A stretch of 64,000 bases of DNA. Origin: Bacillota bacterium (GTDB lineage: Bacteria > Bacillota > Clostridia > Christensenellales > CAG-917). The DNA lies in the NCBI GenBank assembly GCA_023665365.1, contig JAMPEA010000004.1, forward strand, positions 32,823-96,822. Reading direction: 5' to 3'. Below are positions 22,606-22,937 of the stretch, one piece after another. Numbering within the stretch: the first letter of the stretch is position 1; each line of letters opens with the position of its first letter. Under the pieces are notes generated by a model. That model was not told the origin of the DNA and searched no databases. It worked only from the letters and a program-made list of their open reading frames with translations. Position numbers and translations under genes: made by a program.

Positions 22606-22937
22606 ACTCTAAATAAAATAACCCACCCCTTCCCTGCGGGCTTTCCCCTCCCACTCGAACACGACGCTCCTCGTAGCTCGCTCTTTGTCTACTTAATTTC
22701 TCGTCGCTCGCGGGATGGGAAGTCGGCGCGCGCACGTCGAGTATCGTCCGCTCGACACTCTTACGAGTGCGAGATTATGCCACTCGTTCGCGGGCATATA
22801 AACAACACTTGCCCGCTCACTTGTACTTGTTGTGTGCCTTGCGATTGGGCTACGCCACAATCGCTACGTCACCCAACTCTGGTGCTTGGCACTCCCTTCC
22901 TCCGCGCCCTGCGCGTCGCGTTCAAAACTTCGTAACA
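22606..22937 (-). ncRNA. Candidate structured non-coding RNA, copy 2 (longer variant)
   Basis: Same conserved blocks as 6011-6279. It also has extra hairpins, including GCGATTG...CAATCGC and CACTC-GTAA-GAGTG. It fills the dusB-trmL gap and ends about 32 nt before the trmL ATG. Confidence 0.45.

What the first reader, a model, noticed from the sequence alone, without database searches (positions are those of the whole stretch)
22606..22937. Copy 2 of the candidate RNA carries extra stem-loops and occupies the whole trmL leader
Copy 2 is about 60 nt longer than copy 1. It contains additional helices:
- GTGCC...GGCAC, enclosing GCGATTG-11 nt-CAATCGC.
- CACTC-GTAA-GAGTG, which has a GNRA-type tetraloop.
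- GTCGAG-9 nt-CTCGAC.

A conserved core with expandable peripheral hairpins is typical of functional RNAs rather than of decaying repeats.

The element ends only about 32 nt before the trmL start codon. No -35/-10 pair fits in that space, so trmL is either transcribed through the element or from within it. In copy 1, by contrast, polA has its own good promoter after the element.

The same element therefore sits in two different functional contexts. That argues against a gene-specific leader. It fits better with an independent or processed RNA, or with a mobile RNA-coding module.
Basis: partly seen in the sequence, partly recalled or inferred. Interest (0 to 1): 0.65.

Follow-up and report, generated by a model that had tools for sequence, protein, structure and literature searches.

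The report
Mobile structured repeat inserted before trmL
The sequence filling the dusB-trmL gap is one copy of a previously uncatalogued, multi-copy, about 300-base folded repeat of uncultured Clostridia that inserted recently into an operon, so it is a mobile element and not a trmL control region.

Summary
Copy 2 (window 22941-22597, minus strand) is homologous to copy 1 (about 6310-5990).

About 20 further copies were found in other Clostridia assemblies. They form a family with no match in Rfam 15.

Two 5' helices (P1, P2) show strong compensatory variation. G-U versus A-C counts (23 vs 0) place the folded strand on the window's minus strand. The 3' half pairs well but varies too little to test.

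Both window copies are insertions:
- DusB relatives (78-89% identity) keep the same gene order with a dusB-trmL gap of 10-95 nt, against 368 nt here.
- PolA relatives (83-87%) have a 176-205 nt gap before polA, against 676 nt here.
- A 78% relative carries a copy at another site.
- Three contigs from two same-species assemblies break inside copy 2.

The "peripheral hairpins" are interchangeable cassettes. The GCGATTG...CAATCGC hairpin sits at a different site in other copies, and near-identical copies differ by clean cassette indels.

Best reading: a non-autonomous, modular, structured interspersed repeat, probably read through within the dusB-trmL transcript. RNA function and the means of mobility are unknown.

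The parts
22597..22941 (-). Copy 2 of the repeat. It runs from the base after the dusB stop codon to about 24 nt before the trmL ATG. It lacks the family's 5' extension.
   Evidence: Alignment with copy 1; nhmmer E = 4e-58; covariance-model hits of 62 and 29 bits; absent from the orthologous site in relatives.
22900..22918 (-). P1 hairpin CGACGCGC-AGG-GCGCGGAG: five Watson-Crick pairs, a tandem G.A/A.G, and a closing C-G.
   Evidence: Four of its 8 pairs change on both sides across 19 copies. The tandem G.A is replaced by C-G/G-C in L115 and L125.
22838..22884 (-). Optional cassette 1 (47 nt). It is closed by GTGCC (22892-22888) / GGCAC (22838-22834) and contains the GCGATTG-10 nt-CAATCGC hairpin (22864-22841).
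   Evidence: Absent from copy 1. Folds with z = -3.6. The same hairpin occurs at another internal site in L113, L133 and two L118 copies, with an inner stem that covaries (GGC/GCC versus ACC/GGU).
22781..22826 (-). P2: outer UAC/GUG, G-C and U-A pairs, two 2x2 internal loops (AA/GA and tandem GA/GA), then a 7-bp hairpin. It is followed by GCATAA (22780-22775).
   Evidence: Seven of 9 inner pairs change on both sides. U-A becomes C-G in three variant copies.
22753..22773 (-). Optional cassette 2 (21 nt), containing CACTC-GTAA-GAGTG (22769-22756). So far it is unique to copy 2.
   Evidence: Absent from copy 1 and from all other copies. Hairpin z = -5.1.
22736..22756 (-). GTCGAG-9 nt-CTCGAC hairpin, formed partly from cassette 2 and partly from the conserved GGACGATA segment.
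   Evidence: Present in the sequence but weak (z = -1.8). Not seen in other copies.
22643..22721 (-). P4 (TTCCCATCCCGCGAGCGA with TTCGAGTGGGAGGGGAA), enclosing the variable P5 hairpin.
   Evidence: 97% of cells are paired in 11 type-A copies, but there is only one compensatory change (L126, TCTTCC/GGAAGA). Covariation is therefore inconclusive.
22597..22640 (-). P6 hairpin CCC-GCA-GGG, a G-rich run, the U-rich tract TTATTTTATTT, and the tail AGAGTGCACAACGC.
   Evidence: Conserved block D15. Compared with 3' ends across copies.
22774..22802 (-). The only promoter-like site upstream of trmL (TTTATA-17-CATAAT with TG). It lies inside the element and overlaps the nearly invariant GAGTGGCATAA.
   Evidence: Consensus scan, 9 of 12 matches. 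The position matching the usually critical last T of the -10 hexamer varies (T/C/A) among copies. Not supported as a conserved promoter.
22574..22596 (-). Native trmL ribosome-binding region (AAAAGAGGA, then ATG at 22573).
   Evidence: Similar AAAGAGGAG / GAGG sequences precede trmL at the empty sites of relatives.
5990..6310 (-). Copy 1, with the 5' extension (CTGCTTGATAGGGTGTTACACGACGAACGG). It lies between a terminator-like hairpin (6343-6323) and the polA promoter (5981-5953).
   Evidence: 106 bits. Relatives have only 176-205 nt between the Big_2 gene and polA, and no copy there.

Best explanation
Copy 2 is a member of a multi-copy, non-coding, modular interspersed repeat found in a clade of uncultured Clostridia (Bacillota).

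**Architecture.** The family has a conserved core of about 250 nt that folds on one strand, the window's minus strand. Two of its helices, P1 and P2, contain tandem G.A motifs and are maintained by compensatory substitutions. Optional cassettes sit at fixed internal positions, and there is an optional 5' extension.

**Shown here.**
- Both window copies are lineage-specific insertions.
- Copy 2 landed directly after the dusB stop codon, inside what is a tight mazG-dusB-trmL operon in relatives. It left trmL's own ribosome-binding site intact.

**Inferred.**
- dusB transcription reads through the element into trmL, so the element is carried as a 345-nt structured spacer in the mRNA.
- The extra stem-loops of copy 2 are family cassettes acquired by recombination between copies or by nested insertion. 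They are not adaptations to trmL.
- Selection keeps the core fold, either because it is needed for the element's spread or because the transcript has a role.

**Unknown.** The enzyme or mechanism that moves the element, and any RNA function.
For: **A multi-copy family**
- There are 17 full and several partial copies, plus tandem arrays, in 15 loci from independent assemblies.
- Contigs break inside copy 2 in two same-species MAGs (three contigs). A contig also breaks inside the L133 copy.

**Insertion polymorphism**
- The dusB-trmL gap is 30, 10, 25, 37 and 95 nt in relatives at 89, 87, 85, 81 and 78% DusB identity, with identical gene order. It is 368 nt in the window.
- The Big_2-polA gap is 205 and 176 nt in relatives at 87 and 83% PolA identity, against 676 nt in the window. 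The polA promoter is conserved.
- No copy was found in the roughly 20-kb loci of those relatives.
- The 78% relative has a copy at a different site, after gpmI.

**Folded core**
- P1 and P2 are 86% paired, and 11 of 20 pairs change on both sides.
- The covariation score is 0.364, against 0.146 for shuffles (0 of 500 reach it) and at most 0.128 for slid controls.
- G-U cells number 23 and A-C cells 0, which fixes the strand.

**Non-coding**
- The long antisense open frames fall in three different frames across copies.

**Modularity**
- Cassettes occur at fixed sites.
- The GCGATTG hairpin sits at two different sites, both following GAGTGCCR.
- L116 and L118A are 98% identical over 260 nt but differ by clean 50-nt and 85-nt indels and an extra tandem unit.
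- A hairpin from a second repeat family is nested in the L133 copy.

**Not catalogued**
- No Rfam family matches any copy.

**Read-through**
- No terminator-like site was found in copy 2, and no promoter lies between it and trmL.
Against: - No transposase, terminal inverted repeats or clear target-site duplication were found. Mobility is inferred from distribution only.
- Relatives are too diverged in intergenic DNA to define the insertion junctions to the base.
- Strong compensatory change and invariant non-canonical motifs across copies only about 72-75% identical suggest more than selfish DNA.
- The 3' domain lacks informative variation.
- Thirteen of the 19 aligned copies were recovered with a pattern that fixed the flanks of P2. 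The invariance of those flanks is therefore partly by construction. The covarying 25-nt interior and P1 are not.
- Transcription was not measured.
Confidence: 0.65

Rival explanations
1. The copies are paralogous genes for a trans-acting, large structured non-coding RNA. Each would be transcribed on its own or processed from longer transcripts, with a cellular function. They would have spread by duplication and horizontal transfer rather than by transposition.
For: - Compensatory changes occur in P1 and P2.
- Tandem G.A motifs are invariant, and G-U asymmetry is strand-specific.
- A conserved core persists across diverged genomes.
- Tandem arrays, as in L118, are known for some sRNA families.
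Against: - No conserved promoter lies at the 5' end. Copy 1 sits between a terminator and the polA promoter.
- 5' ends are heterogeneous and copies are rearranged or truncated.
- Closest relatives lack the family in all sampled loci.
- Cassettes turn over between 98%-identical copies.
- At least three loci carry the element antisense to all neighbouring genes.
Confidence: 0.2
2. The core is the RNA component (guide scaffold, ribozyme or retromobility template) of a mobile system whose protein is encoded elsewhere in the genome. An example would be stand-alone IS200/IS605-type omega-RNA copies, or an RNA-mediated element. This is a special case of the best explanation that names a mechanism.
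For: - No terminal inverted repeats were found, and no clear target duplication.
- The folded strand is the G-rich leading-strand sequence of the window.
- The element is co-oriented with the upstream gene in about 11 of 14 loci.
- 5' ends are heterogeneous while 3' ends are more uniform.
- Both window insertions are followed by CTTGTAAA / CTGTAAAA.
Against: - The HEARO family and all other Rfam models fail to match, even at E = 10.
- No TnpB, IscB, TnpA or reverse-transcriptase-like gene recurs near any of 18 copies.
- No matches were found in phage or plasmid collections.
- The target-motif observation rests on two sites.
Confidence: 0.1
3. The element is a cis-regulatory leader (riboswitch or attenuator) that controls trmL and polA.
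For: - It occupies the whole gap before trmL.
- The C-run can pair alternatively with two G-runs, the second followed by a U-tract. In copy 2 both pairings are kept (sequence inspection).
Against: - It is absent from the same sites in relatives.
- Downstream genes are unrelated and often convergent.
- polA has its own conserved promoter downstream of copy 1.
- No terminator-like site was found.
Confidence: 0.03

Closest known systems
bcr repeats of the Bacillus cereus group (bcr1, about 155 bp; group B repeats such as bcr5, about 310 bp)
   Same: Both are Firmicute intergenic repeats present in many copies. Their genomic distribution is not conserved between related strains. Base-pair compensatory changes maintain a fold at the RNA level (PMC3184786, as read). 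The present family shows the same three properties.
   Different: There is no sequence relationship. bcr1 has 5-bp flanking direct repeats and is shown to be transcribed; neither could be shown here. The present core is larger and multi-helical, contains tandem G.A motifs and carries optional cassettes.
BOX elements of Streptococcus pneumoniae
   Same: Both are modular: units in variable number give lengths of 67-637 nt for BOX. BOX elements are non-autonomous, predicted to fold as RNA, transcribed, and located in intergenic regions where they can alter expression of neighbouring genes (PMC3184786). Here cassettes are present or absent at fixed sites, and tandem arrays occur.
   Different: The sequence and architecture are different. 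BOX is built from short boxA/B/C modules. Here a long conserved core carries optional inserts.
HEARO / omega-RNA copies of IS200/IS605-family elements without a protein gene (own knowledge)
   Same: Both are multi-copy RNAs of about 300 nt with complex folds that behave as mobile DNA, lack terminal inverted repeats and show strand bias.
   Different: The Rfam HEARO model does not match. No IscB, TnpB or TnpA gene was seen near any copy. No conserved target motif has been established.
REP/BIME-type palindromic repeats
   Same: Both are extragenic, hairpin-forming and clustered, and both cause assembly breaks. A genuine REP-like family coexists in this genome and has inserted into one copy of the element.
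   Different: REPs are single hairpins of 20-40 nt. This element is ten times larger, with several distinct helices.

Membership tests
Any curated Rfam 15 RNA family | Score at or above the family's gathering threshold | tested here: not met
   There were 0 matches in the whole window and in 13 loci with copies. At E up to 5-10, only weak, unrelated matches appeared on copy 1, copy 2 and the L118 array.
Interspersed structured repeat (bcr1-like) | Many copies per genome in intergenic DNA | tested here: met
   There are two copies in 64 kb. Four contigs of one assembly (ERZ808267) and four of another (Ga0137306) carry copies. Tandem arrays occur, and contigs break inside copies.
Interspersed structured repeat (bcr1-like) | Genomic positions not conserved between close relatives | tested here: met
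   Both window sites are empty in relatives at 78-89% (DusB) and 83-87% (PolA) identity. The 78% relative has a copy at another site.
Interspersed structured repeat (bcr1-like) | Compensatory base changes that maintain the fold | tested here: met
   For P1/P2, 11 of 20 pairs change on both sides. The score is 0.364 against 0.146 for shuffles (0 of 500). The 3' domain is inconclusive.
Interspersed structured repeat (bcr1-like) | Transcribed | not testable with these tools
   No expression data are available. Only promoter and terminator consensus scans could be run.
Classic MITE | Terminal inverted repeats | tested here: not met
   No inverted repeat at the termini is shared by the four copies examined.
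Classic MITE | Target-site duplication flanking each copy | tested here: inconclusive
   Empty sites are too diverged to place the junctions. Similarity between the 5' and 3' flanks within a copy is no greater than between copies (permutation p = 0.08).
BOX-like modular repeat | Built from modules that vary in presence and number between copies | tested here: met
   At least four optional cassettes and an optional 5' extension exist. Clean cassette indels separate 98%-identical copies.
IS200/IS605-derived element or omega-RNA | Associated TnpA/TnpB/IscB gene, or a match to the HEARO model | tested here: not met
   No homologous gene recurs within 4 kb of 18 copies. HEARO does not match. A genome-wide search for such genes was not possible.
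IS200/IS605-derived element or omega-RNA | Insertion next to a fixed 4-5 nt target, without duplication | tested here: inconclusive
   Both window copies are followed by CTTGTAAA / CTGTAAAA, which pre-exists at the empty polA site. That is only two sites.
cis-regulatory leader / riboswitch | Conserved position upstream of a consistent set of genes, in their orientation | tested here: not met
   Downstream genes are unrelated. They are convergent or antisense in several loci. The element is absent at orthologous sites.
Protein-coding gene (antisense ORF 22600-22935) | Reading frame conserved among copies | tested here: not met
   Open frames on the antisense strand fall in three different frames over the same homologous DNA. 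Single-base indels occur between copies.

The most novel reading that the evidence does not exclude
The conserved core would be the working RNA of a new kind of mobile genetic element in Clostridia. This core comprises P1 and P2 with their invariant tandem G.A loops, the GAGUG repeats and the G-rich 3' domain. In this reading it is a structured RNA that promotes its own spread, for example as a guide scaffold, a ribozyme or a template for RNA-mediated insertion, together with a protein encoded elsewhere. That would account for three things: selection on the fold, insertion polymorphism, and the lack of inverted repeats or an adjacent transposase.
Probability: 0.15. Interest if true: 0.8.

Novelty: new member of a known kind. 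Interest (0 to 1): 0.45.

Why it matters
The result removes a tempting mis-annotation: this is not a trmL leader or riboswitch. It documents a new repeat family that fragments assemblies of a group of uncultured Clostridia. It also gives a clean natural example of a 345-nt folded insert dropped between two genes of a tRNA-modification operon.

The family combines clear selection on an RNA-type fold with mobile behaviour and rapid cassette exchange. That makes it a reasonable candidate for finding how structured repeats spread in Firmicutes, and whether they carry an RNA function. As it stands it belongs to a known general kind, and no function is shown.

Tried and rejected
1. **Genome-contig scan.** Only L064 was a true homologue.
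2. **Viral contigs.** Patterns found nothing relevant. blastn against the phage and plasmid collections found nothing.
3. **Target duplication.** I tested whether the 5' and 3' flanking segments of each copy are a target duplication. Within-copy similarity was no better than between-copy similarity (p = 0.08).
4. **Terminal inverted repeats.** None is conserved.
5. **Associated protein gene.** None recurs near the copies.
6. **Antisense ORF.** The reading frames are inconsistent.
7. **Helices in the 3' half.**
   - P4 and P6 pair well but do not vary.
   - No consistent pairing was found for the GGACGATA...GAGTGCCG segment.
   - The distal pairing CCCCC/GGGGG-U-tract and the pairing GAGUG/CACUC with the tail could not be tested, because the register shifts between copies.
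8. **Internal promoter.** The TGnCATAAT motif was considered as a conserved promoter. The last position of the hexamer varies among copies, so this is not supported.
9. **Orientation of the GCGATTG cassette.** The loops (GUA versus UAC) first suggested inversion. The shared flanks (TAGCGATTGT) and the inner-stem covariation fit the same orientation.
10. **Literature.** Searches by topic and by sequence string found no description of this family.

Full report
**Location and observation**

The finding lies between two minus-strand genes. dusB is at 22942-23868; its best match is TIGR00737 at 275 bits, just under the cut-off. trmL is at 22088-22573 and matches TIGR00185 at 198 bits, above the cut-off. 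The gap between them is 368 nt.

A repeat search and pairwise alignment show that 22941-22597 is homologous, on the same strand, to about 6310-5990 upstream of polA. Three blocks share 80-85% identity.

Copy 2 has two extra blocks, of 47 nt (about 22884-22838) and 21 nt (about 22773-22753).
- GTGCC/GGCAC encloses GCGATTG-10 nt-CAATCGC. The block folds with z = -3.6.
- CACTC-GTAA-GAGTG has z = -5.1.
- GTCGAG-9 nt-CTCGAC is weaker, at z = -1.8.

The promoter statements also hold.

**A family, not two copies**

Rfam 15 has nothing at gathering thresholds for the window, and nothing relevant at E up to 10 for either copy.

My one genome-collection scan used a G+C-rich 19-mer. It was swamped by chance hits and yielded one real homologue, L064, from an uncultured Clostridia MAG.

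A metagenome scan used the pattern GTACAAGNGAG-N25-CGANCGAGTG. It returned 16 loci, of which 13 are true homologues. Several come from the same assembly.

nhmmer and a covariance model then found further copies, partial copies and tandem arrays. With filters off, the model finds only the two known copies in the window. None of the copies matches any Rfam family. blastn finds nothing in the phage or plasmid collections.

**Structure**

I aligned 19 copies over the 5' half, removing by hand the inserts of copy 2, L119 and L118B. The results for P1 and P2 are:
- 86% of cells are paired.
- 11 of 20 pairs change on both sides.
- The covariation score is 0.364, against 0.146 for shuffles (0 of 500 reach it).
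- Slid controls reach 0.035-0.128.

P1 reads C-[G.A/A.G]-5 bp-triloop. The tandem G.A is replaced by Watson-Crick pairs in two copies. P2 contains a tandem GA/GA loop and an AA/GA internal loop. Its U-A pair becomes C-G in a variant subfamily.

One caveat applies. The flanks of P2 were fixed by the search pattern for 13 of the copies. Its 25-nt interior and P1 were not.

G-U cells number 23 and A-C cells 0, so the folded strand is the window's minus strand. This is also the G-rich leading-strand sequence.

In the 3' half, P4 and P6 are 97% paired but almost invariant, with one compensatory change. They remain unproven.

No reading frame is conserved.

**Both window copies are insertions**

DusB homologues at 89, 87, 85, 81 and 78% identity lie in loci with the same gene order: spoVT-like, polysaccharide-synthesis gene, mazG, dusB, trmL, (fic), pgk, tpi, gpmI. 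Their dusB-trmL gaps are 30, 10, 25, 37 and 95 nt. They contain only a ribosome-binding site similar to the one kept in the window.

PolA homologues at 87 and 83% identity have 205 and 176 nt between the Big_2 gene and polA. That space holds a terminator and the same polA promoter. The window has 676 nt there.

None of these relatives' loci (about 15-22 kb each) holds a copy. The 78% relative has one at another place, after gpmI, and its contig ends inside it.

Two same-species MAGs break contigs inside copy 2, at positions equivalent to 22810, 22802 and 22864.

**Context elsewhere**

No gene recurs next to copies. The element is co-oriented with the upstream gene in about 11 of 14 independent loci. 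It is antisense to well-supported neighbours in L113 (gerAC-like), L116/L118 (yidC-yidD) and L122 (rsmG).

5' ends are heterogeneous: an optional extension is present in some copies, including copy 1, and absent in copy 2. 3' ends are more uniform.

No terminal inverted repeats are conserved. The idea of a long target duplication failed. Both window copies are followed by CTTGTAAA / CTGTAAAA, which pre-exists at the empty polA site. Two sites cannot establish a target.

**The extra stem-loops are cassettes**

The GCGATTG...CAATCGC hairpin of copy 2 lies after the first GAGTGCC. In L113, L133 and both L118 copies it lies after the second GAGTGCYG. Its inner stem covaries (GGC/GCC versus ACC/GGU).

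L119 and L118B carry a 140-160 nt cassette near the site of copy 2's insert.

L116 and L118A are 98% identical over 260 nt. They differ by clean 50-nt and 85-nt cassette indels, a 9-nt loop indel and an extra tandem unit.

The L133 copy contains a nested hairpin from a second, REP-like repeat family that is also present in the window.

These are features of mosaic, recombining repeats. The 21-nt GNRA hairpin cassette is so far unique to copy 2.

**Interpretation**

The best-supported reading is a non-autonomous, modular, structured interspersed repeat. It is of the same general kind as the bcr repeats of the Bacillus cereus group and the pneumococcal BOX elements. Those are described as unevenly distributed among relatives, transcribed and kept folded by compensatory changes (PMC3184786).

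Copy 2 was inserted into an operon junction and is most simply read through into trmL. This is an inference from the 10-37 nt gaps in relatives and the absence of terminator-like or promoter-like sites.

I could not determine what moves the element, or whether its RNA does anything. A trans-acting ncRNA family remains possible (about 0.2). So does a mechanism in which the RNA core itself serves mobility (about 0.1-0.15). A trmL or polA leader function is effectively excluded.

Noticed in passing
window 47614-47790, 51550-51650, 898-929, 27319-27346; also L133 16110-16143: A second repeat family was seen. Its units are about 42 nt, CACCCC-AYAAAAC-loop-GTTTTRT-GGGG-ACCCCGAT, and form a hairpin whose stem covaries between units. 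They occur in tandem clusters of 2-4 and as singletons. There were 12 pattern matches against 0 expected. One unit is nested inside the L133 copy of the large element. It resembles a REP/BIME-type repeat.
   Followed up: partly
window 6320-6585: About 230 nt between the Big_2 gene terminator and copy 1 are also absent from relatives. The stretch includes small hairpins, a C-rich tract (CCCTATACCCCC...CCCCCCAACCCCCCCCCC) and a second terminator-like hairpin (6343-6323). It may be another inserted element, or part of a larger composite insertion together with copy 1.
   Followed up: no
window 21032-21910 and relatives L127, L130, L131, L133: The Fic-domain gene between trmL and pgk is present in the window and in the 87% relative. 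It is replaced by a 106-aa ORF in the 85% relative and is absent in the 81% and 78% relatives. This is a second presence/absence difference in the same operon region.
   Followed up: no
window 31704-31973 and 44288-44348: There are five tandem 57-nt repeats (63-81% identity to the reference unit). They have an inverted relative 12 kb away. This is probably a repetitive coding sequence.
   Followed up: no
window 16714-16849 and 17752-17887: A 136-nt direct repeat at 91% identity, 1 kb apart. It was not examined.
   Followed up: no
proteins P0001 and P0121 (window dusB and polA): One source labels these proteins 'MAG: ... [Bacteroides sp.]'. Another calls them Bacillota, and all close relatives are labelled Clostridia. 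The Bacteroides label looks like a binning or taxonomy error.
   Followed up: no
PolA homologues at 75% identity: Dozens of independent assemblies give contigs of almost the same length (about 10.8-11.1 kb) for this gene. This suggests the segment is bounded by repeats on both sides in that species.
   Followed up: no
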